Assembly (NCBI GenBank): GCA_016180235.1
Contig: JACPBQ010000002.1
Location: 2,206 to 66,205 of the forward strand
DNA: 64,000 nt
Source: Candidatus Woesearchaeota archaeon
GTDB lineage: Archaea; Nanobdellota; Nanobdellia; Woesearchaeales; GW2011-AR4
Reading direction: 5' to 3'
Of the stretch, positions 4,342 through 62,664 are shown piece by piece. The first letter of the stretch is position 1, and each line of letters begins with the position of its first letter. Under the pieces are notes generated by a model, which was not told where the DNA came from, searched no databases, and saw nothing but the letters and a program-made list of their open reading frames with translations. The translations under genes were made by a program, and so were the position numbers.

Positions 4342-4392
4342 CTCGGGATGCCGCAGGCATCCCAATACGCTAGTGTGCAGGCATGCACAAAA
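4342..4392 (+). promoter_or_regulatory. two-hairpin structured motif, copy 1 of 3
   Basis: GGGATGCC-gca-GGCATCCC, linker AATACGCTAG, TGTGCA-ggca-TGCACA. Differs from the copy at 43401-43449 at 2 linker positions over about 51 nt. Same architecture as 38138-38186. Confidence 0.7.
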
Positions 4393-4400
4393 AACAACAA

Positions 4401-4412
4401 ATTTTATAAAAT
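4401..4412 (+). promoter_or_regulatory. TATA-like box for glyS (leaderless-type spacing)
   Basis: attttataaaat centred about 27 nt upstream of the ATG at 4433. Confidence 0.45.
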
Positions 4413-4432
4413 ACCGATTAATCTATTACCGC

Positions 4433-5923
4433 ATGGAAAAATTAAGCATAGAGGACATGGCTGTTTTCTGCAAGAGGAAAGGTTTTGTCTATCCTTCCAG
4501 CGAGATATACGGCGGTTTTTCAGGATTCTGGGATTTTGGCCATTTGGGTGTTGAATTAAAGAACAACATAAAGGCAGAATGGTGGAGATACCATGTCCAG
4601 CAAAGAGAGGATATTGTCGGCATAGATGGCTCTATAATTACCCATCCGAAAGTGTGGCAGGCCAGCGGCCATGTCGAGAATTTTGAGGATATAATGCTGA
4701 AATGCTCAAAATGCAGGCAGGAAATAAGGGCAGACCATTTTATTGAGGAAAAATTAAAAACAAATGCAGAAGGCTCGAAGGTAAATGAAATAAACGATAT
4801 TATCAAAAAAAACAAATTGAAATGCCCAAGATGCAATTCCGATTTTGAAAAGATAGAGCAGTTCAATTTGATGCTTAAGACAAGCATTGGCCCGAAAGAG
4901 GACAAAAGCTCAGTATCCTACCTGAGGCCGGAGACAGCGCAATTGATATTTGCTGATTTCAAGCTGGTTGCTGATAATGCAAGATTAAAGCTTCCTTTTG
5001 GAATTGCACAAATCGGGAAAGGCTTCAGGAATGAAATAAGCCCAAGGGATTTTCTTTTCCGCTGCAGGGAATTTGAGATGATGGAAATAGAGTATTTTGC
5101 CCATCCGGAAAAAACCGATAAGTGCCCTTTCATAGACGAAATAAATGATGAAGAATTAAATTTCCTCACTGCAGAAATGCAGGAGAAAAAGCAAAATCCT
5201 ATAAGGATGAAAATAAAGGATGCATTGAAGAAAAAAATAATTTCGGAATGGCACGCTTACTGGCTGGCAACAGAGCAGAAATGGTTTGTAAATTTAGGGG
5301 CAAAGCAGGAAAACTTCAGGGTAAGGCAGCATCTGAAAAAAGAAAAAAGCCATTATGCCGTTGACACATGGGATTTAGAGTATAACTTCCCTTTCGGCTG
5401 GAAAGAGCTGCAGGGAATAGCTAACAGGGCTGATTTTGACCTGCAGCAGCACATGAAATTCTCAGGCAGTGATTTAAGCCTGTTTGACGAAGAAACAAAG
5501 AAAAAAATTGTTCCGCATGTTATAGCAGAGCCTTCCCAGGGAGTTGAAAGGGCTTTCCTTGTTTTTATGTTCGATGCCTACAATGATGACAAGAAAAGAG
5601 GGAATGTTGTCTTAAAATTGAACCCAAAACTTGCTCCAATAAAACTGGGGATATTCCCGTTGGTGAATAAATTAGATGATGAGGCAAAAAAAATATATGA
5701 TGCCTTAAAAAAAGATTTTAACTGCATTTTTGACAAATCGGGAAGCATTGGAAGAAGGTATGCAAGGGCCGATGAGACAGGAATTCCTTTTTGTATCACA
5801 ATTGATTTTGATACTCTGAAGGACAAGGCTGTTACAGTAAGGAATCGCGATGATACAAAGCAGGTAAGGGTAAAAATACAGGATTTAAATGAGACCATCT
5901 CCAAATTAATAAATAATCCATAA
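4433..5923 (+). CDS. glyS: glycyl-tRNA synthetase, archaeal/eukaryotic alpha2 type
   Basis: MEKLSIEDMAVFCKRKGFVYPSSEIYGGFSGFWDFGHLG, RPETAQLIF and FRNEISPRDFLFRCREFEMMEIEYF (class II motifs). I prefer the ATG at 4433 over the track GTG at 4373 because of the TATA spacing, and because the extension overlaps a repeat element. Confidence 0.9.
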   Translation: MEKLSIEDMAVFCKRKGFVYPSSEIYGGFSGFWDFGHLGVELKNNIKAEWWRYHVQQREDIVGIDGSIITHPKVWQASGHVENFEDIMLKCSKCRQEIRADHFIEEKLKTNAEGSKVNEINDIIKKNKLKCPRCNSDFEKIEQFNLMLKTSIGPKEDKSSVSYLRPETAQLIFADFKLVADNARLKLPFGIAQIGKGFRNEISPRDFLFRCREFEMMEIEYFAHPEKTDKCPFIDEINDEELNFLTAEMQEKKQNPIRMKIKDALKKKIISEWHAYWLATEQKWFVNLGAKQENFRVRQHLKKEKSHYAVDTWDLEYNFPFGWKELQGIANRADFDLQQHMKFSGSDLSLFDEETKKKIVPHVIAEPSQGVERAFLVFMFDAYNDDKKRGNVVLKLNPKLAPIKLGIFPLVNKLDDEAKKIYDALKKDFNCIFDKSGSIGRRYARADETGIPFCITIDFDTLKDKAVTVRNRDDTKQVRVKIQDLNETISKLINNP

Positions 5924-5955: not shown

Positions 5956-6393
5956 ATGCAGGTAAAAGACTTAAAGCCGAGGCAGGGAAAGGTTGACATA
6001 GAGCTCGACATAGTTGATATGGGCGAAGTAAGGGAATTTGAGAAATTCGGAAAAGCAGGAAGGGTGGCAAACGCAATAGCAAAAGACGAGACAGGAGACA
6101 TTAAGCTGACTTTATGGAATGATGATATTGAAAAGATAAAATCAGGGGATAAGATAAAAATCACAAATGGCTATGTTTCCGAGTGGCAAGGGGAAATGCA
6201 GCTTTCAACAGGCAAATTCGGGACTATGGAAGTACTAGGGGAAAGCAAGGAAGCAAAAGAAGAAGCTACAAGCCCTCCAAATGAAAAAGAGGGCAAAAAA
6301 GCCTACCGGGAATCAGAAGAGAACTTTAAGAAAATAGAGGAAAAGCTTGAAGAAGAGCCTGACTTTGATGAGGAAGAAGTCAAGGACGAGTAA
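5956..6393 (+). CDS. OB-fold single-stranded DNA-binding protein with acidic C-terminal tail
   Basis: N-terminal roughly 95 aa looks like a single OB fold (GKVDIELDIVDMGEVREF..GDIKLTLWNDDIEKIKSGDKIKITNGYVSEWQGEMQLS). It is followed by an E/K-rich linker and the acidic tail DFDEEEVKDE, as in SSB proteins. Confidence 0.6.
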   Translation: MQVKDLKPRQGKVDIELDIVDMGEVREFEKFGKAGRVANAIAKDETGDIKLTLWNDDIEKIKSGDKIKITNGYVSEWQGEMQLSTGKFGTMEVLGESKEAKEEATSPPNEKEGKKAYRESEENFKKIEEKLEEEPDFDEEEVKDE

Positions 6394-6448
6394 GCGAAAG
6401 TAATTTAAATCAATTCTTTTTCTGAAATTAATGTCTGAGCAAAATTTA

Positions 6449-6661
6449 GGGATTTGATAAGCGCATGTTTTATCAGACTAAAAACCGTAGCTCAGACTGA
6501 GAAGACTGAGGTCTTCGGCTAAGGAGAGCATTTCAAAAATCTCAAACTACGCTGAAGACGTAGGTGATTGGTACAGGTATACTGGCCAACTTAAATCCTG
6601 GGTTCAAATATCCCAGAGGGCCATTAAAATCCCTCAGGATTTGAAATTCCCAGCGGTCCCA
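6449..6661 (+). tRNA. tRNA-Phe(GAA), interrupted by about five insertions (or a decayed pseudogene)
   Basis: Acceptor GGGA(6449-6452)+CCG(6485-6487) pairs with CGGTCCC(6654-6660), discriminator A. D-stem GCTC/GAGC. Perfect anticodon arm CTACG-CTGAAGA-CGTAG (6547-6563). T-arm CTGGG-TTCAAAT..CCCAG. Exon pieces sum to 74 nt and insertions to 139 nt. A T-run follows. Confidence 0.6.
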
Positions 6662-6668
6662 CTTTTTT

Positions 6669-8840
6669 CTATGCCCCTAAAGAGCTTGTCAGTATCTGCC
6701 CTGCAATTATATTAAATAATAGCATTACAATAAGGCTTATTATGCAGTAAAGCACTGTGCTTCTTATCATGTTATTTCCAAGCGAATATTTTTCATTCAG
6801 CTTGTCAGAGCCGTTCTCAATGCCGTTGACAAGTATTGTCAGGATATAAGTTATCTGCACAACATACAACCCTACAATTATCTGGAAATAATATGTCGGT
6901 ATTCCTTCTCCAAAAATCGCCATCAGGCCTGCTCCCTGGGCTGCAGAAGATCCGGCTGTAACATCCTGCAGCTGTGAGCCGAGCTTTCCAAGGATTGTGG
7001 TTACCATCGAAGTTATCCCTATGACAATTCCGGCTATTGCCGGTGTCAAAAATTTTATCTGGGAATTCATTGAAGAGATTATGTCTGCCAATAAATCCTG
7101 CAGCCTTTCATTCACGCTGTGTATTTCCTTTATGTACCTTGAGACGTTTGTCAGGGCCTGGGCTGCGATTACTGGCCCTTTTTTTACCGATTGGACAAGG
7201 ACCTTCATCGAGCTTTCTATGAGGTTTGACGGAAAACTTATCAAAGCCCCGTGCGCAGGGTCAAATATTGCCTGCTTTATCCCCATCCCGAGTTTTTTTA
7301 TGTTAGCGCTCACAAGGCTGAAAAAATTTCCCGAGACCGTGCCTTCCATCATGTTTGCGACCTTGTCGAATGCTATCTCTGCAGGAAGCCCGTCTCCCAG
7401 CCTGTTTCCGAGCTGGAACAATGCGGATGCAAATTCCATCTCCAGTTTTTTCGCCCTCTCCCTTATCTTTATGATGTTCTTTGACCTTAGCCTGTAGAAT
7501 ATGCCTATTCCCAGTCCTAAAGATAATGTCACCAGCAGGCTTAATATAGCCGCGCCAAGGCCGTAAGGCCCCTCTGTCTCTCCTGTTGTAGCGCTTTCCC
7601 TGTATTCAAGCAGGCAGAATTTCTTGAGGCATGGGCTTAATGCGTCTTCAGCGCCAAAGCCGATGTCTGTAAAATTGATGCTGTGCAGCAGTACAGGGCT
7701 TAATCCTATTATGAGCAGCAAAGCGCCTATAAATATGCTGAACACAAGGGGATTTATCAGGAATTCTATTTTTCCAAGTTTTATTATGACGTTCCTGTAT
7801 TTTTTGAGCTCTGGGTTTTCCTCAGAAATATCCGTCTGGCCGTATCCTGTCGGCCTCCTGGATAATACCGCTTTCCCGAGGTAATATACGGCAACAGGCA
7901 AAGCAACATTGTACAGTGCAGCTATATGGTACCATGCCACTCCTTCCATAAAGCTGACAACCAAGGGCAGTATGACCAGGCCAAGAATCGGCAAAATGAT
8001 GCCAAGCATGTGCAGCATCGTTATTGGGCTTTGGAGATTATGGGCATAATGCAGCATCTTCTCGTAAGTCTCGTCCAGTATGACGTCCAATGACTTGTCC
8101 AATGCATTCAGCCTTCTTTCCTCGCTTCCCTCGTACAATGAAGATTCAATAAGGTGGAAAGATTCTATGAACTCGAAATTCCATCTCTTCCATGTTTCCA
8201 GGTATATGTCAAGGCTTTCCTTTATGCTGTCGTATTTTTCTGTCTCGACGTCCCAGAGCACTTTCTTGAGGTCAAGGCTCAGCGGAGGCGCAAGATGGTC
8301 TGCCGCAAACTCAATTGCATTTTCCAGGTTGCTCGTATGCCTCATGTATGTTACCACATAAAATACGCAAAGCACCATCTGGTTGCTTGCCTTTAGCCGC
8401 CAGTTGTTTGCAATATAGTCCGGAAGCTTTGCAAAAGGCTTTATCAGGGAGATTCCTATTATGAAAAAGAAAAGAATGAAAAACACAGACTGCAGCAAAA
8501 GGAAGGAAAGCAGCGATCCAAGTAATATTATGAAGATCGGGGCCAAGATTGAAAAGGAGACCGCTCCTGAAGGGGTTATATCAAGATGGGATATGCTTAT
8601 GTTATCCAGCATATCCTCCTCTTTTTTCTTATCCGGCTTTATCTTCAGTATCTTCTCGCTCAGGCCGCATAGCTTCTCGTATATCGTAAAGTGCTTTGGC
8701 ATGTATTCCTGCCTGAATTCCCGGTATTCCCTGGAGGTGATTTTAGGGGAATAAGTCTTTGCGCCCAGCTCTTTCTCTATCTGCTGCCTGTAGAACTCTG
8801 CCAAGTTCTTCATCCTTTCCTTGTCGCTTTGCGTCGGCAT
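6669..8840 (-). CDS. polytopic membrane platform protein of a type IV filament system (FlaJ/TadC/PilC-like, T2SS-F-type domain)
   Basis: 723 aa with many TM helices. The cytoplasmic segment FASALFQLGNRLGDGLPAEIAFDKVANMM..IKKLGMGIKQAIFD..FPSNLIESSMKVLVQSVKKGPVIAAQALTNVSRYI fits the GspF/T2SS-F domain pattern. Same strand and directly downstream of the FlaI-type ATPase. Confidence 0.6.
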   Translation of the reverse strand: MPTQSDKERMKNLAEFYRQQIEKELGAKTYSPKITSREYREFRQEYMPKHFTIYEKLCGLSEKILKIKPDKKKEEDMLDNISISHLDITPSGAVSFSILAPIFIILLGSLLSFLLLQSVFFILFFFIIGISLIKPFAKLPDYIANNWRLKASNQMVLCVFYVVTYMRHTSNLENAIEFAADHLAPPLSLDLKKVLWDVETEKYDSIKESLDIYLETWKRWNFEFIESFHLIESSLYEGSEERRLNALDKSLDVILDETYEKMLHYAHNLQSPITMLHMLGIILPILGLVILPLVVSFMEGVAWYHIAALYNVALPVAVYYLGKAVLSRRPTGYGQTDISEENPELKKYRNVIIKLGKIEFLINPLVFSIFIGALLLIIGLSPVLLHSINFTDIGFGAEDALSPCLKKFCLLEYRESATTGETEGPYGLGAAILSLLVTLSLGLGIGIFYRLRSKNIIKIRERAKKLEMEFASALFQLGNRLGDGLPAEIAFDKVANMMEGTVSGNFFSLVSANIKKLGMGIKQAIFDPAHGALISFPSNLIESSMKVLVQSVKKGPVIAAQALTNVSRYIKEIHSVNERLQDLLADIISSMNSQIKFLTPAIAGIVIGITSMVTTILGKLGSQLQDVTAGSSAAQGAGLMAIFGEGIPTYYFQIIVGLYVVQITYILTILVNGIENGSDKLNEKYSLGNNMIRSTVLYCIISLIVMLLFNIIAGQILTSSLGA

Positions 8841-8912
8841 CTGTAGAACTGTTCACCTCTTTTTTTAAGTCATATTTATATAATAATAAACCAATAATCA
8901 TTCCTTTATTAT

Positions 8913-9072
8913 CTAGGCGCCGCCAATACCGCGGCGCATCATTGCACTGGACATTTGCGCAATCGCCCCATTACGGGCGATTATTGATGTGTTGCAGTGA
9001 TTGCCGCGCAACAATGGCGCGGCTAGGAAAGTTACGTACCAATGATGCGAGGCCGTAATGCGCCGAGCCTAT
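8913..9072 (+). repeat. GC-rich multi-hairpin element (candidate structured RNA or repeat family member)
   Basis: Hairpins GCGCCGC-caatacc-GCGGCGC, AATCGCCC-catta-GGGCGATT and GCCGCGC-aacaatg-GCGCGGC. Long-range pairings CGCATCATT/AATGATGCG and CACTG/CAGTG. Strongly GC-rich in an AT-rich spacer between the ATPase and platform genes. Confidence 0.6.
9009..9072 (+). repeat. left arm of 64-nt perfect inverted repeat
   Basis: caacaatggcgcggctaggaaagttacgtaccaatgatgcgaggccgtaatgcgccgagcctat is the exact reverse complement of 15772-15835. Confidence 0.9.
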
Positions 9073-15975: not shown

Positions 15976-16548
15976 ATGCTGAACAAGAGCGAATTTGGGA
16001 AAATAAGGCAGGAGCTGGCCAGGACTGAGGAAAGGAGGGAATATGTCATTCAGCTGTCCAGGGAGATAATAAACCTGTCAAAGAGGATAATTTATGCCCT
16101 GCACAGGGATGATGTCAGGGAAGCAGATTCATTGATAAAAGAGATAGATTCTAAAAAGGGTTCTCTGCTGAAAAACAACATAAAGCTCGACATCAATATA
16201 GACCAGGTTGCTTTGCAGGAGTATGTGGAAGCCTTATGCTATTACCATTTTATTAAAAACAGGAAGATCCCGGACAAAGCTGCCCTGAAAGTGGACAGCG
16301 AAAGCTACCTGCTTGGCTTGTGCGACCTTAGCGGGGAGCTTGTAAGGAAAGCTGTGAATGAAGTTGTAAAAAACAATTTTGATATAGCTTTCGGGATAAA
16401 GGGCCTTGTCGAGGAAATTTATGATGAGTTTTTGAAGTTCAACCTGAGGAACAACGAGCTGAGGAAGAAATCCGACCAGATAAAATACAACCTGATAAAA
16501 TTGCAGGATGTCATTTATGAGCTTAAGATGAAAGGTAAATTAAAATGA
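15976..16548 (+). CDS. translin-family nucleic-acid-binding protein
   Basis: QEYVEALCYYHFI and YLLGLCDLSGELVRKAV match the translin/TRAX signature (Y-L-x-G-x-x-D-L-x-GE-L-x-R). 190 aa, all-helical. Confidence 0.75.
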   Translation: MLNKSEFGKIRQELARTEERREYVIQLSREIINLSKRIIYALHRDDVREADSLIKEIDSKKGSLLKNNIKLDINIDQVALQEYVEALCYYHFIKNRKIPDKAALKVDSESYLLGLCDLSGELVRKAVNEVVKNNFDIAFGIKGLVEEIYDEFLKFNLRNNELRKKSDQIKYNLIKLQDVIYELKMKGKLK

Positions 16549-18302
16549 GGCTTAAAAGGACAAGCACATGCGGGGAGCTTGGAAAGAAGGATATCAGGAA
16601 AGAAGTTTGCCTGGCAGGATGGATTCAGTCATCAAGAGACCATGGAGGCATTATTTTTATTGATTTAAGGGACAGGTATGGGCTTACCCAGGCAGTTTTT
16701 GACCCCAAGCATGACAGGAAAACACATAAGGAAGCTGAATCATTAAGAAGGGAAGATGTAATTTCAGTTAAGGGCAAAGTCAGGGCTCGCGGCAAAGGCC
16801 TTGAAAACCCCAATCTTAAGACAGGAGAGATAGAGGTTCTCGCAGATGAATTGGAAATTCTGAGCAGGGCTGAGACGCCGCCTCTTGAAGTTGAGGACAG
16901 GGTTGATGCCGGAGAGGAACTAAGGTTAAAGTACCGCTTCCTGGACTTGAGAAGGCCTAAGATGCAGAATCATTTATTGATAAGGCATAAGGCTGCGCAG
17001 GCTGCCAGGGAATATCTGAACAAGAATAATTTCCTGGAGATTGAAACTCCGATGCTGGTAAGGGCAACTCCCGAAGGCGCCCGTGATTATATTGTTCCTT
17101 CAAGAGTAAATCCTGGCAAGTTTTACGCACTGCCCCAAAGCCCTCAATTGTACAAGCAGATTCTCATGGTTTCAGGCTGTGACAGGTATTACCAGCTGGC
17201 CAGATGCTTGAGGGATGAGGACTTGAGGGCAGACAGGCAGCCTGAGCACACTCAGATAGATCTGGAAATGAGCTTTGTTGCGCAGGAAGATGTTTTGGAG
17301 ATGGTAGAAGGCCTGTACAAGCACATGATGAAATCTGTTTTAGGCATTGACATCAAACACAAATTCCCGAGGCTGTCGCACAAGGAATCAATGGACAAAT
17401 ACGGGACAGACAAGCCTGACTTGAGATTTGGCCTTGAGCTGATTGATGTAACCGATATTGTAAATAGTTCGGATTTTGAGGTTTTTAAGAAAGCCGAGCA
17501 GGTAAAGTGCATCAATCCGGAAAAGGATTTCAGCAGGAACGAGCTTGACAGCTACATCAGTTTCTGCCAGCAGAACGGCGCCAAGGGAATGGCCTGGATG
17601 AAAGTCACAGATAAAGGCCTGGAAAGCAACATTGTGAAATTTTTTAACAATAATCTGCAAAAGAAGATTCTTGAGAAAACGAAGGCAAAAAAAGGCTCTA
17701 CTTTGATGTTCATTGCAGACAAGCCAAAAATAGCTGCTGCAATTTTGGACAAATTAAGGCTCAAATTGAGGGACGATTTAAAATTGGTCAAAGGCAATGA
17801 TTTCAGGTTCTGCTGGATTGTTGATTTTCCCCTGTTTGAATGGGATGAGGAAAATGGGAAATGGGAAGCATCGCATCATATTTTTACCGCTCCAAAAAAA
17901 GAGCACATTCATCTGTTGGAAAAAGAGCCTGGAAACGTCTATGCTGATTTATATGATTTGGTTCTTAATGGGATAGAGTTAGGATCCGGAAGCATAAGGG
18001 AGACAAATCCTGAAACTCAGCAGAAAGTCATGAAAGTCATCGGCATCAAAAAGGAAGACGCGATAAAAAAATTTGGGTTTTTGATGGAAGCTTTCAAATA
18101 TGGAACTCCGCCGCATGGAGGCATAGGCCTGGGCTTTGACCGCATTGTAGCGTTAATGTGCGGCTATAACGACATAAGGGAAGTGATTGCATTCCCAAAA
18201 AACAAGAACGCAGAATGCCCGATGGACGGCTCTCCAAGCGAAGTTGATGAAACGCAATTGAAAGAGCTGCATATTAAGAGTGATTTGGTGAAGAAAAAAT
18301 AA
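16545..18302 (+). CDS. aspS: aspartyl-tRNA synthetase, bacterial-type (585 aa with insertion domain)
   Basis: GWIQSSRDHGGIIFIDLRDRYG (bacterial AspRS N-terminal OB), CLRDEDLRADRQPEHTQIDLEMSF (motif 2) and HGGIGLGFDRIVALM (motif 3). ATGA overlap with translin. Confidence 0.9.
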   Translation: MRLKRTSTCGELGKKDIRKEVCLAGWIQSSRDHGGIIFIDLRDRYGLTQAVFDPKHDRKTHKEAESLRREDVISVKGKVRARGKGLENPNLKTGEIEVLADELEILSRAETPPLEVEDRVDAGEELRLKYRFLDLRRPKMQNHLLIRHKAAQAAREYLNKNNFLEIETPMLVRATPEGARDYIVPSRVNPGKFYALPQSPQLYKQILMVSGCDRYYQLARCLRDEDLRADRQPEHTQIDLEMSFVAQEDVLEMVEGLYKHMMKSVLGIDIKHKFPRLSHKESMDKYGTDKPDLRFGLELIDVTDIVNSSDFEVFKKAEQVKCINPEKDFSRNELDSYISFCQQNGAKGMAWMKVTDKGLESNIVKFFNNNLQKKILEKTKAKKGSTLMFIADKPKIAAAILDKLRLKLRDDLKLVKGNDFRFCWIVDFPLFEWDEENGKWEASHHIFTAPKKEHIHLLEKEPGNVYADLYDLVLNGIELGSGSIRETNPETQQKVMKVIGIKKEDAIKKFGFLMEAFKYGTPPHGGIGLGFDRIVALMCGYNDIREVIAFPKNKNAECPMDGSPSEVDETQLKELHIKSDLVKKK

Positions 18303-48809: not shown

Positions 48810-48953
48810 GGGCCCGTGGTCTAATCCGGCATGACGTTTCCTTCGCAGGGAAAAGACTCCGGGATGCTCGAAATTAGTTTTTCGGCACGGAAATTCAAAT
48901 ATCCCAGAGGGAGACTGCAAATCCATTGGGTTTTGAGAGTCCCGGCGGGTCCA
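48810..48953 (+). tRNA. tRNA-Ala(CGC) with two insertions flanking the T-loop
   Basis: GGGCCCG/CGGGTCC acceptor with G3:U70 (alanine identity pair). D-arm GTC-TAATCCGGCAT-GAC. Anticodon arm TTTCC-TTCGCAG-GGAAA. T-stem CCGGG(48859-63)/CCCGG(48941-45). TTCAAAT at 48894-48900. Insertions of 30 and 40 nt, and 74+70=144 nt. Confidence 0.75.
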
Positions 48954-52293: not shown

Positions 52294-52513
52294 GCCGACG
52301 TCGCATAACCTGGCATTGCGGTGGCCTTGAGAGCCACTTCCCGTAAGGGTATCTCGGTCAGCTTTTTTGCTTGCGCAAAAAACCTGGGAAAAACAGGGAA
52401 TTCCTCGTTTTTGCCCGGAATTCAAATTGCAGAGTAAGCAAATAGCTGGAGAAATTCAAATATCCCAGAGGGCAGCTAAAATCCCTCGGGATTTGGGAGT
52501 CCGGGCGTCGGCG
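52294..52513 (+). tRNA. tRNA-Ser(UGA), class II, with two insertions around the T-loop
   Basis: Acceptor GCCGACG/CGTCGGC, discriminator G. D-arm GCA-TAACCTGGCAT-TGC. Anticodon arm GTGGC-CTTGAGA-GCCAC. Long variable arm (CCC-gtaa-GGG). T-stem 3' CCGGG (52501-05). TTCAAAT at 52455-61. Insertions of about 97 and 39 nt. Confidence 0.7.
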
Positions 52514-62468: not shown

Positions 62469-62664
62469 TGGGCCCGAAGGGACTTTCACCAACTGCGAAC
62501 ATAGAGGGGCTGAGCGAGCGTTGCGAGCAGCGAAATGGTGAGCGAGTTTCTTGCGAACCTCGCATCTCACTGCCGCTCGAACGTGCCAGCTGAGTTCTCA
62601 GCTGTGTTGAACCCTTGACCTCCGCCGTGTCGAGGCGACGTCATAGCCACTAGACCACGGGCCC
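62469..62664 (-). tRNA. tRNA-Val(GAC) with a 123-nt GC-rich insertion in the T-loop
   Basis: Minus strand: GGGCCCG..CGGGCCC-A acceptor. D-arm GTC-TAGTGGCTAT-GAC. Anticodon arm TCGCC-TCGACAC-GGCGG (anticodon complement of 62629-62631, C rather than U at position 33). T-stem AAGGG/CCCTT separated by 130 nt that begin with TTCAA. Confidence 0.65.

What the first reader, a model, noticed from the sequence alone, without database searches (positions are those of the whole stretch)
6449..6661. tRNA-Phe(GAA) gene that only assembles after removal of five separate insertions
Each part of the cloverleaf is present but interrupted:
- Acceptor: the 3' end CGGTCCC-A needs a 5' GGGACCG. That is present only as GGGA (6449-6452) plus CCG (6485-6487), with 32 nt between.
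- D-arm: the stem GCTC/GAGC encloses 32 nt. These reduce to the canonical AGACTGGGA loop if about 23 nt, containing the hairpin GAAGAC-tgag-GTCTTC, are removed.
- Anticodon arm: a perfect CTACG-CUGAAGA-CGTAG (6547-6563) is separated from the D-arm by 16 extra nt.
- T-arm: the anticodon arm is separated from the T-arm CTGGG-TTCAAAT by about 29 extra nt.
- T-stem: the 3' strand CCCAG (6649-6653) is 39 nt away from the T-loop.

Exons sum to 74 nt and insertions to 139 nt, which matches the 213-nt locus exactly. To my knowledge up to three introns per archaeal tRNA gene have been described (Thermoproteales), so five would be exceptional. The alternative is a decaying pseudogene.
Basis: partly seen in the sequence, partly recalled or inferred. 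Interest (0 to 1): 0.75.

Follow-up and report, generated by a model that had tools for sequence, protein, structure and literature searches.

The report
Five-intron tRNA-Phe gene in Woesearchaeota
This is a real phenylalanine tRNA gene of a tiny uncultured archaeon that is broken into six pieces by five short introns, two more than the three reported as the maximum for any tRNA gene in the papers I could search, and standard tRNA finders do not see it.

Summary
Removing five segments from window 6449-6661 (+) leaves a 74-nt sequence that ARAGORN calls a perfect tRNA-Phe(GAA). The segments are 6452-6483, 6500-6522, 6530-6545, 6567-6595 and 6609-6647, at tRNA positions 3/4, 18/19, 25/26, 46/47 and 59/60.

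At the boundaries fixed by the cloverleaf, every junction fits the archaeal bulge-helix-bulge (BHB) rule. The central 4-bp helix is 4/4 paired in four introns and 3/4 in one; random position pairs reach 4/4 in 2% of cases.

The host is a Woesearchaeota (DPANN) archaeon. The gene lies in conserved synteny (GlyRS, OB-fold protein, tRNA-Phe, 723-aa protein). Relatives carry the same tRNA at this spot with 0, 1, 2, 3 or 4 introns, drawn from at least seven insertion sites. The mature sequence is 74/74 identical to the closest relative's, while shared introns have diverged and show compensatory changes. This is a functional gene, not a pseudogene.

The window holds three more hidden disrupted tRNA genes (Ala, Ser, Val), giving 10 non-canonical introns in four genes. 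The literature I could search gives three introns as the maximum. Splicing itself was not tested, and no EndA gene lies in the window.

The parts
6394..6410 (+). Conserved promoter box GCGAAAGTAATTTAAAT (BRE/TATA-like). It ends 38 nt upstream of the mature 5' end.
   Evidence: The same motif (cGAAAGTAATTTAAAt) precedes the syntenic tRNA-Phe in L001, L002, L005, L087, L093 and L094; L088 has AAAGTAATTTAAAC. Promoter function is inferred from known archaeal promoter architecture.
6434..6448 (+). Inferred 5' leader of the precursor. Its last three bases (6446-6448, TTA) plus G1 form the central BHB helix of intron 1.
   Evidence: The spacing between the TATA box and the mature 5' end is about 12 nt longer than in relatives that lack the 3/4 intron (24-26 nt there, 38 nt here). 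The transcription start is inferred.
6449..6451 (+). Exon 1 (GGG, tRNA positions 1-3)
6452..6483 (+). Intron 1, 32 nt, position 3/4. HBh' type: central helix TTAG(6446-49)/CTAA(6478-81) 4/4, bulges GG|A and AA|A, inner helix 9 bp.
   Evidence: The local minimum-free-energy fold reproduces the 5' bulge and both helices. Introns at 4/5 with the same leader-using geometry occur in L010 and L024.
6484..6499 (+). Exon 2 (ACCGTAGCTCAGACTG, positions 4-18)
6500..6522 (+). Intron 2, 23 nt, D-loop position 18/19. Central helix AGAC/GGCT 3/4 (one A.G mismatch), inner helix GAAGAC/GTCTTC 6 bp, outer helix 3 bp.
   Evidence: Homologous introns in L002 and L094 (AGAC/GTCT) and in L010 (AGCC/GGCT) are 4/4, so the window looks like the intermediate of a compensatory change.
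6523..6529 (+). Exon 3 (GGAGAGC, positions 19-25), a 7-nt micro-exon between two introns
6530..6545 (+). Intron 3, 16 nt, position 25/26. Central helix GAGA/TCTC 4/4, bulges GC|A and AA|A, minimal 3-bp A-U inner helix.
6546..6566 (+). Exon 4 (A26, anticodon arm with GAA anticodon, G44-G46)
6567..6595 (+). Intron 4, 29 nt, variable-loop position 46/47. Central helix TAGG/CTTA 4/4 (one G.U), inner helix 5 bp plus 3 bp.
   Evidence: In the nine-sequence family alignment A2, 91% of cells are paired and 5 pairs show compensatory change.
6596..6608 (+). Exon 5 (TC, T-stem 5' strand CTGGG, T-loop TTCAAA; positions 47-59)
6609..6647 (+). Intron 5, 39 nt, T-loop position 59/60. Outer helix is the T-stem (5 bp); central helix TTCA/TGAA 4/4; 3' bulge AT|T. 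The 5' bulge AA|T competes with three extra A-U pairs, so this is a relaxed hBH-like motif.
   Evidence: The BHB-constrained local fold is -19.1 against an MFE of -19.9 kcal/mol. Homologous introns occur in tRNA-Ala and tRNA-Ser of this window and in L001 and L005.
6648..6661 (+). Exon 6 (T60, T-stem 3' strand CCCAG, acceptor 3' strand CGGTCCC, discriminator A73). No CCA is encoded.
6663..6668 (+). T-run (TTTTTT) two bases after A73, a likely archaeal transcription terminator
   Evidence: T-rich tracts follow the gene in relatives as well. Terminator function is inferred.

Best explanation
Window 6449-6661 (+) is the functional tRNA-Phe(GAA) gene of a Woesearchaeota (DPANN) archaeon. Five archaeal-type BHB introns interrupt it, at positions 3/4, 18/19, 25/26, 46/47 and 59/60.

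Shown at sequence level:
- Six colinear exons of 3, 16, 7, 21, 13 and 14 nt join into a canonical 74-nt tRNA.
- Each junction places the two cut sites after the second base of 3-nt bulges that flank a 4-bp helix, as full or relaxed BHB motifs.
- The exons are under purifying selection, while the introns turn over and covary.

Inferred:
- The gene is transcribed from the conserved TATA-like box into a precursor of about 230 nt.
- The tRNA splicing endonuclease (EndA) cuts at ten sites, and an RtcB-type ligase joins the six exons.
- Intron 1 must be removed before RNase P trims the leader, because its central helix uses three leader bases.
- RNase Z or another 3' trimming activity, followed by CCA addition, completes the tRNA.

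The introns were probably gained by spread of mobile or recombining BHB-intron families within this lineage. The 59/60 intron is shared by at least three tRNA genes in the window.
For: - The spliced product is a perfect tRNA-Phe(GAA) by ARAGORN. Its MFE fold is the cloverleaf. It carries U8, A14, G18G19, G20, A21, U33, G37, G53, T54-T55-C56, A58, C61 and A73, read directly from the sequence.
- BHB rule at the cloverleaf-fixed boundaries: central helix paired 4/4, 3/4, 4/4, 4/4, 4/4; inner helices of 9, 6, 3, 5 and 1 bp; outer helices of 0, 3, 2, 1 and 5 bp. The background rate is P(4/4)=0.02 and P(4/4 with inner helix >=3)=0.001.
- BHB-constrained local folds lie within 0.5-0.8 kcal/mol of the MFE for introns 1, 3 and 5.
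- The host is archaeal: RFC, family B DNA polymerase, S-layer protein, TFIIB, eIF2-gamma and S6e. The closest GlyRS homologues are labelled Woesearchaeota or Nanoarchaeota.
- The syntenic locus in relatives holds the same tRNA with 0-4 introns. All 22 spliced models are called tRNA, and 39 of 45 valid introns have a 4/4 central helix.
- The window's mature sequence is 74/74 identical to that of L001, whose GlyRS is 89% identical, while the shared 46/47 and 59/60 introns are strongly diverged.
- The 46/47 intron family covaries: 91% of cells are paired against 13-56% in slid controls, and 5 pairs show double changes.
- T-stem compensatory change across intron 5: CTGGG/CCCAG in the window versus GTGGA/TCCAC in L005.
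- Exon GC is 59.5% against 36% for the introns.
- Three further BHB-disrupted tRNA genes in the same window show that the organism handles such introns routinely.
Against: - There is no RNA evidence: the spliced tRNA and the excised introns were not observed.
- No EndA or RtcB gene lies in the window (Pfam scans), so the enzyme type is unknown here.
- Intron 2 has an A.G mismatch in its central helix.
- The 5' bulge of intron 5 can be absorbed into a 7-bp helix in the MFE fold.
- For introns 2 and 4 the BHB conformer is 4-5 kcal/mol above the local MFE.
- Only 64 kb of the genome is visible, so a second, intact tRNA-Phe gene elsewhere cannot be excluded.
- The exact five-intron allele was not found in any other assembly.
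Confidence: 0.86

Rival explanations
1. Decaying tRNA-Phe pseudogene: a former tRNA gene that accumulated five random insertions and no longer functions.
For: ARAGORN and Rfam do not recognise the locus. One central helix carries a mismatch. Another tRNA-Phe gene could lie outside the 64-kb window.
Against: - Random insertions would not place each boundary in BHB geometry (joint chance about 1e-12 from the frequencies).
- They would not leave all 74 exon bases identical to the nearest relative's while shared introns diverge.
- The promoter box and terminator are retained.
- Relatives use the same insertion sites with covarying helices.
Confidence: 0.04
2. A real intron-containing gene that is redundant or poorly spliced: the five-intron allele is a nearly neutral, recently overloaded copy, and translation relies on a second tRNA-Phe gene elsewhere in the genome.
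For: Only 64 kb of the genome was examined. The relaxed motifs at introns 2 and 5 might be cleaved inefficiently. The exact allele was not seen in any other assembly.
Against: The syntenic locus is where tRNA-Phe was found in every relative in which I detected one, including intron-free versions. DPANN genomes usually carry few tRNA genes: a median of 35 per genome is reported in bioRxiv 10.64898/2026.05.13.725050. Exon conservation argues for continuing selection.
Confidence: 0.08
3. Assembly artefact: some of the insertions come from mis-assembly of a metagenome, so the true gene has fewer introns.
For: The source is probably a metagenome-assembled contig. The 18-mer at the start of intron 5 occurs three times in the window, and such repeats could in principle mislead an assembler.
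Against: Each insertion is a distinct sequence with its own BHB pairing to the adjacent exon. Homologous introns sit at the same sites in independently assembled relatives from NCBI, ENA and JGI. The flanking genes are colinear with relatives.
Confidence: 0.02

Closest known systems
Multiple-intron tRNA genes of Thermoproteales (Crenarchaeota), for example Pyrobaculum islandicum tRNA-Pro(UGG) with introns at 25/26, 37/38 and 56/57, and P. calidifontis with 71 introns in 46 tRNA genes
   Same: BHB, HBh' and hBH introns at non-canonical positions, including 3/4, 25/26, 53/54 and 59/60 (PMC4090602). Several introns can sit in one gene. Related intron sequences are shared among different tRNA genes, which has been read as intron transposition (Fujishima et al. 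2010, as cited in PMC4090602). Standard tRNA finders miss these genes.
   Different: - The published maximum is three introns per gene (PMC8450103); here there are five.
- In this window, four tRNA genes carry 10 introns and none is at 37/38.
- The host is a mesophile-type DPANN archaeon (Woesearchaeota), not a hyperthermophilic crenarchaeon.
- The endonuclease is probably of a different type: alpha4 with the L3 loop is reported across diverse DPANN lineages (PMC5829648), against the (alpha-beta)2 enzyme with the crenarchaeal loop.
Highly disrupted nuclear tRNA genes of the red alga Cyanidioschyzon merolae and of the Guillardia theta nucleomorph
   Same: Up to three BHB-type introns per gene, in the D-arm, at 37/38 and in the T-loop. 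Stepwise removal has been demonstrated and correlates with BHB stability (PMC3728597; PMC4090602).
   Different: These are eukaryotic hosts and some of the genes are also permuted. The maximum is three introns. There is no sequence relationship to the introns described here.
Non-canonical tRNA introns and broad-specificity EndA in DPANN archaea (ARMAN-2 epsilon2; alpha4 enzymes carrying the L3 loop)
   Same: The same superphylum. Kaneta et al. 2018 report increased tRNA gene disruption in DPANN lineages, and incomplete predicted tRNA sets that they attribute to unidentified disrupted genes (PMC5829648).
   Different: That work used tRNAscan-SE predictions. In the text I read it did not describe genes with more than three introns. 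The five-intron gene and the 59/60 intron family found here are concrete examples of the 'unidentified' class.
Split and tri-split tRNAs (Nanoarchaeum equitans, Caldivirga maquilingensis)
   Same: The tRNA is assembled from several pieces, through BHB-like structures and EndA.
   Different: There the pieces are transcribed from separate loci and joined in trans. Here all six exons are colinear within 213 nt, behind one promoter box.

Membership tests
Archaeal BHB (EndA-spliced) tRNA intron | Removal of the insert restores a canonical cloverleaf tRNA | tested here: met
   The 74-nt product is called tRNA-Phe(GAA) with all stems perfect. Its MFE fold is the cloverleaf.
Archaeal BHB (EndA-spliced) tRNA intron | Both splice sites lie in 3-nt bulges separated by a 4-bp helix (hBHBh'), or in the accepted relaxed forms HBh' and hBH | tested here: met
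   Central helix paired 4/4, 3/4, 4/4, 4/4, 4/4 at boundaries fixed by the cloverleaf. Intron 1 is HBh'; introns 2-4 are hBHBh' with short outer helices; intron 5 is hBH-like. Caveats: one A.G mismatch in intron 2, and a competing 7-bp helix at intron 5.
Archaeal BHB (EndA-spliced) tRNA intron | The host is an archaeon (or eukaryote) that encodes EndA and an RtcB-type ligase | tested here: inconclusive
   The host is clearly archaeal and Woesearchaeota-like. No EndA or RtcB domain was found among the 60 window ORFs scanned with Pfam. The rest of the genome is not available.
Archaeal BHB (EndA-spliced) tRNA intron | Exons conserved, and introns variable or lost in homologues, with helix-preserving changes | tested here: met
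   The syntenic tRNA-Phe in relatives has 0-4 introns. Exons are 74/74 identical to L001. The 46/47 family covaries.
Archaeal BHB (EndA-spliced) tRNA intron | Spliced RNA and excised (often circular) introns are observed | not testable with these tools
   No transcriptome data are available.
tRNA-Phe | GAA anticodon in a 7-nt loop with U33 and G37; invariant and semi-invariant bases; G20 and A73, which I recall as Phe identity elements | tested here: met
   Read directly from the spliced sequence: U8, A14, G18, G19, G20, A21, U33, G34-A35-A36, G37, G53, T54, T55, C56, A58, C61 and A73.
Multiple-intron tRNA genes as described so far (Thermoproteales, C. merolae) | Two or three BHB introns in one colinear gene | tested here: not met
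   Five introns exceed the stated maximum of three (PMC8450103). No paper in the held library reports four or more. It works in the same way but lies outside the described range.
tRNA pseudogene | Broken stems or lost invariant bases after any reasonable reconstruction; no selection on the exons; loss of expression signals | tested here: not met
   The reconstruction is perfect, the exons are conserved, and the promoter box and T-run are retained.
Split or permuted tRNA gene | Pieces encoded at separate loci, or in permuted order | tested here: not met
   All six exons are colinear within 213 nt.

The most novel reading that the evidence does not exclude
This Woesearchaeal lineage may have the most intron-dense tRNA genes known.
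- One gene has five introns and six exons, including exons of 3 and 7 nt.
- The four tRNA genes visible in the window carry 10 non-canonical introns, about 2.5 per gene.
- These introns are driven by actively spreading BHB-intron families. The 59/60 family is shared by the Phe, Ala and Ser genes.
- Their origin may be linked to elements that carry a homing endonuclease: in the closest relative, a LAGLIDADG gene sits in an insertion flanked by a duplicated tRNA-Phe 3' exon.

If this is general, many tRNAs reported as missing in DPANN genomes would be multi-intron genes that current tools cannot see, rather than lost or split genes.
Probability: 0.5. Interest if true: 0.75.

Novelty: new variant of a known kind. 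Interest (0 to 1): 0.66.

Why it matters
It raises the known upper limit of intron load in a tRNA gene from three to five. It shows that exons as short as 3, 6 and 7 nt can apparently be tolerated by the archaeal endonuclease and ligase system. That sets new demands on how exon pieces are held together for ligation, and on the order of splicing relative to RNase P.

It gives a concrete explanation for the incomplete tRNA sets reported for DPANN genomes (PMC5829648; bioRxiv 10.64898/2026.05.13.725050). ARAGORN and the Rfam tRNA model missed all four tRNA genes in this 64-kb window.

The presence/absence pattern across close relatives offers unusually fine-grained material for studying how BHB introns are gained and lost. 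At least seven insertion sites are used, with 0-5 occupied per genome. Intron families are shared between different tRNAs, and a LAGLIDADG element sits at the same gene in a relative.

Tried and rejected
- ARAGORN on the raw window, on the locus with its intron option, and on relatives found nothing.
- Rfam found no tRNA hit, either at gathering thresholds over the whole window or at E<=10 on 6350-6750. It returned only chance snoRNA-like matches.
- An exhaustive search for hidden tRNAs with three to six introns in all intergenic gaps produced too many combinations and crashed. Further tRNA genes with three or more introns may therefore remain undetected in the window. The search at depth one and two worked.
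- Using the four mature tRNAs as spliced-alignment queries had no power across isotypes, but it showed that the window holds no second tRNA-Phe.
- Exact-sequence look-ups of two window proteins, meant to find the source contig or independent assemblies of the five-intron allele, returned nothing.
- The genome and metagenome scans did not recover the same allele.
- I looked for EndA and RtcB among 60 window ORFs with Pfam and found none.
- I considered a C/D-box guide RNA inside intron 5 and rejected it by eye, because it has no RUGAUGA or CUGA boxes.
- I considered alternative splice registers for intron 5 that use the bulge predicted in the MFE fold (cut after 6611). I rejected them because they give T-loops of 10 or 13 nt.
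- A full-length fold with all five BHBs enforced is far above the global MFE (-38.1 against -65.9 kcal/mol). I do not count this as evidence either way, because splicing is presumably local and sequential.

Full report
**1. The observation**

ARAGORN finds no tRNA in the whole 64-kb window. Rfam finds nothing at gathering thresholds. A permissive Rfam scan of 6350-6750 at E<=10 gives only chance snoRNA-like matches and no tRNA.

Removing 6452-6483, 6500-6522, 6530-6545, 6567-6595 and 6609-6647 (32+23+16+29+39 = 139 nt) leaves this 74-nt sequence:

GGGACCGTAGCTCAGACTGGGAGAGCACTACGCTGAAGACGTAGGTGTCCTGGGTTCAAATCCCAGCGGTCCCA

ARAGORN calls it tRNA-Phe(GAA) with all four stems perfect. Its minimum-free-energy fold is the cloverleaf at -30.3 kcal/mol. 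It carries U8, A14, G18, G19, G20, A21, U33, G37, G53, T54, T55, C56, A58, C61 and A73. Exon GC is 59.5% against 36% for the insertions, and the window as a whole is 39.9%.

**2. Is it more than chance?**

I ran two independent controls.

- *Spliced alignment.* I wrote a spliced aligner: the query is the mature tRNA, and long target gaps are allowed at a fixed cost. It scores the locus 118.8. The best score among about 65 loci without a tRNA-Phe, each a few kb and read on both strands, was 64.5.
- *BHB geometry.* I applied the archaeal bulge-helix-bulge rule. The four exon bases at -6 to -3 pair with the four intron bases at n-5 to n-2. Each strand of that helix is followed by a 3-nt bulge, and the cut falls after the second bulge base. 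I recalled this cut-site register from memory; it fitted the junctions tested here. At the boundaries dictated solely by the cloverleaf, with one or two equivalent slides at most, the results were as follows:

| Intron | Central helix | Paired | Inner helix (bp) | Outer helix (bp) |
|---|---|---|---|---|
| 1 | TTAG/CTAA | 4/4 | 9 | 0 |
| 2 | AGAC/GGCT | 3/4 | 6 | 3 |
| 3 | GAGA/TCTC | 4/4 | 3 | 2 |
| 4 | TAGG/CTTA | 4/4 | 5 | 1 |
| 5 | TTCA/TGAA | 4/4 | 1 | 5 |

Among 400,000 random position pairs in the window, 4/4 occurs in 2.0%. 4/4 with an inner helix of at least 3 bp occurs in 0.1%. My multiplication of these frequencies gives a joint probability for the five junctions of about 1e-12.

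Local folding agrees. The MFE fold of intron 1 reproduces the 5' bulge GGA between both helices. BHB-constrained folds lie within 0.5-0.8 kcal/mol of the local MFE for introns 1, 3 and 5, and 4-5 kcal/mol above it for introns 2 and 4.

Intron 5 is the least canonical. In the MFE fold its 5' bulge (AA|T) is absorbed into a 7-bp helix. A conformer with the T-stem, the 4-bp helix, both 3-nt bulges and a 4-bp inner helix costs only 0.8 kcal/mol more.

**3. Organism and context**

The window is archaeal. It encodes:
- an RFC-like AAA+ protein, a family B DNA polymerase, an S-layer protein and a type IV secretion ATPase;
- TFIIB, the pyrimidine biosynthesis genes, eIF2-gamma and ribosomal protein S6e.

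The GlyRS encoded at 4373-5923 has its closest homologues (up to 89% identity) in MAGs labelled Candidatus Woesearchaeota or Nanoarchaeota.

The gene order GlyRS, OB-fold/Ssb-like protein, [tRNA-Phe], 723-aa protein (-) is conserved in relatives, and the type IV ATPase (-) follows it in L001, L002 and L005. A box GCGAAAGTAATTTAAAT (6394-6410) precedes the gene and is conserved upstream of the syntenic tRNA in relatives. A T6 run follows A73. No CCA is encoded.

**4. Comparative evidence**

The syntenic position in relatives holds the same tRNA with a variable set of introns:

| Introns | Loci (positions) |
|---|---|
| 0 | L009, L027, L028, L031, L046 |
| 1 | L005 (59/60), L011 and L093 (37/38), L020 (59/60), L026/L029/L032 (D-loop), L091 (46/47) |
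| 2 | L017, L022, L025, L040, L088, L094 |
| 3 | L001/L087 (37/38, 46/47, 59/60), L002 (18/19, 27/28, 46/47), L010 (4/5, 18/19, 27/28), L092 (27/28, 37/38, 46/47) |
| 4 | L024 (4/5, 20/21, 37/38, 59/60; worked out by hand) |

- At least seven insertion sites are in use in the clade. The window occupies five of them, the most seen.
- All 22 spliced gene models are called tRNA by ARAGORN, and 39 of 45 valid introns have a fully paired central helix.
- The window's mature sequence is identical at all 74 positions to that of L001 (GlyRS 89% identical). The two introns they share (46/47 and 59/60) are strongly diverged. This is the signature of selection on the exons only.
- The nine-member 46/47 family keeps 91% of cells paired, against 13-56% when the partners are slid. 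Five pairs show compensatory double changes, and the central helix is 100% paired.
- In the 18/19 family the central helix reads AGCC/GGCT (L010) or AGAC/GTCT (L002, L094). The window (AGAC/GGCT) looks like the intermediate.
- The T-stem covaries across intron 5: CTGGG/CCCAG here against GTGGA/TCCAC in L005.

Together these observations exclude a decaying pseudogene as a reasonable reading.

**5. Mechanism**

*Shown:* the anatomy and conservation described above.

*Inferred from the established archaeal pathway* (EndA cleavage in BHB bulges, then RtcB-type ligation):
- A precursor of about 230 nt is cut at ten sites, and six exons of 3, 16, 7, 21, 13 and 14 nt are joined.
- The central helix of intron 1 is formed by leader bases 6446-6448 plus G1. 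Relatives lacking this intron have a spacing about 12 nt shorter between the TATA box and the mature 5' end. Intron 1 should therefore be spliced before RNase P removes the leader.
- Exon 3 (7 nt) supplies the whole exon strand of intron 3's central helix and abuts the 3' bulge of intron 2. Both motifs can form together.

EndA and RtcB are not encoded in the window (Pfam on 60 ORFs). Kaneta et al. 2018 report alpha4-type EndA with an extra L3 loop in multiple DPANN lineages, associated with increased tRNA gene disruption. They also report incomplete predicted tRNA sets, which they attribute to undiscovered disrupted genes (PMC5829648).

**6. Comparison with what is known**

Non-canonical BHB introns at 3/4, 25/26, 53/54 and 59/60, and genes with up to three introns, are known from Thermoproteales. 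Three-intron genes also occur in C. merolae and in the G. theta nucleomorph (PMC4090602; PMC3728597). The tRNAscan-SE 2.0 paper states that archaeal tRNA genes contain up to three introns (PMC8450103). My full-text searches found no report of four or more BHB introns in one tRNA gene, and none describing multi-intron tRNAs in Woesearchaeota. Subscription-only papers are not covered.

The locus therefore works like the known multi-intron tRNA genes, but it lies outside their described range in intron number and exon size, and it is in a different archaeal lineage.

**7. Other things found**

The same window hides three more disrupted tRNA genes, found by removing BHB candidates and re-running ARAGORN:
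- tRNA-Ala(CGC), 48810-48953, with introns at 53/54 and 59/60 that leave a 6-nt exon TTCAAA;
- tRNA-Ser(UGA), 52294-52513, with introns of 97 nt (53/54) and 39 nt (59/60);
- tRNA-Val(GAC), 62469-62664 (-), with a 123-nt intron at 59/60.

That makes 10 introns in four genes, none of them at 37/38. The 18-mer TTCAAATATCCCAGAGGG occurs exactly three times in the window, at the 59/60 junctions of the Phe, Ala and Ser genes. The introns align as one family, which recalls the intron transposition described for Thermoproteales.

In the closest relative (L001), a roughly 700-nt insertion directly 3' of tRNA-Phe is flanked by a duplicate of the 3' exon. It encodes a LAGLIDADG-domain protein. This hints at a link between these genes and homing-type mobile elements.

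**8. Verdict**

- I class it as a new variant of a known kind: the same BHB/EndA system with an unprecedented intron load.
- It also has practical consequences for tRNA annotation in DPANN genomes.
- Direct RNA evidence, the EndA type and the tRNA-Phe copy number in the full genome remain to be determined.

Noticed in passing
window 48810-48953 (+): Hidden tRNA-Ala(CGC), with the G3.U70 pair, carrying two introns: 48864-48893 (53/54, 30 nt, central helix TCCG/CGGA) and 48900-48939 (59/60, 40 nt). A 6-nt exon TTCAAA lies between them. ARAGORN and Rfam both missed it.
   Followed up: yes
window 52294-52513 (+): Hidden tRNA-Ser(UGA) with two introns: 52358-52454 (53/54, 97 nt, central helix TCTC/GAGA) and 52461-52499 (59/60, 39 nt). 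The 97-nt intron contains a second AATTCAAAT copy (52420-52428) preceded by CCCGG. This looks like a duplicated remnant of the T-arm and intron junction.
   Followed up: partly
window 62469-62664 (-): Hidden tRNA-Val(GAC) with one 123-nt intron at 59/60 (62483-62605, central helix TTCA/TGAA). Its anticodon loop reads TCGACAC, which puts C rather than U at position 33.
   Followed up: partly
window 6603-6620, 48894-48911, 52455-52472: The 18-mer TTCAAATATCCCAGAGGG (T-loop plus intron start) occurs exactly three times, where 0.1 is expected. The 59/60 introns of the Phe, Ala and Ser genes form one paralogous family. The Ala copy resembles the Phe intron of relative L001 more than the window's own Phe intron. 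This suggests intron transfer or homogenisation between tRNA genes.
   Followed up: partly
L001 6158-6881 (GCA_016184145.1, JACPDF010000028.1): In the closest relative, a roughly 700-nt insertion directly 3' of tRNA-Phe is flanked by a second copy of the 3' exon (TCCCAGCGGTCCCA). On the opposite strand it encodes a 233-aa LAGLIDADG_3-domain protein (6109-6810, Pfam E=2e-9). It is probably a homing-endonuclease element that targets this tRNA gene.
   Followed up: partly
window 8893-9072 (+): A GC-rich intergenic element of about 160 nt between two minus-strand genes. It folds into a long multi-hairpin structure (-69.7 kcal/mol), has an upstream TATA-like box and a downstream T-run, and has no Rfam match even at E<=1. 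It is 88% conserved in L001, but there it lies in the opposite orientation relative to the flanking genes. It may be an unknown ncRNA or a small invertible or mobile element.
   Followed up: partly
window 16545-18302 (+): The AspRS carries a GAD domain, which I recall as typical of the bacterial-type enzyme, in an otherwise archaeal gene set.
   Followed up: no
L010, L023, L045 and other loci: Several contigs that carry Woesearchaeota-like GlyRS, and in L010 a multi-intron archaeal tRNA-Phe, are deposited under bacterial or Methanosarcinales labels (for example 'Deltaproteobacteria bacterium YD0425bin51'). These are probably mis-binned or mislabelled.
   Followed up: no
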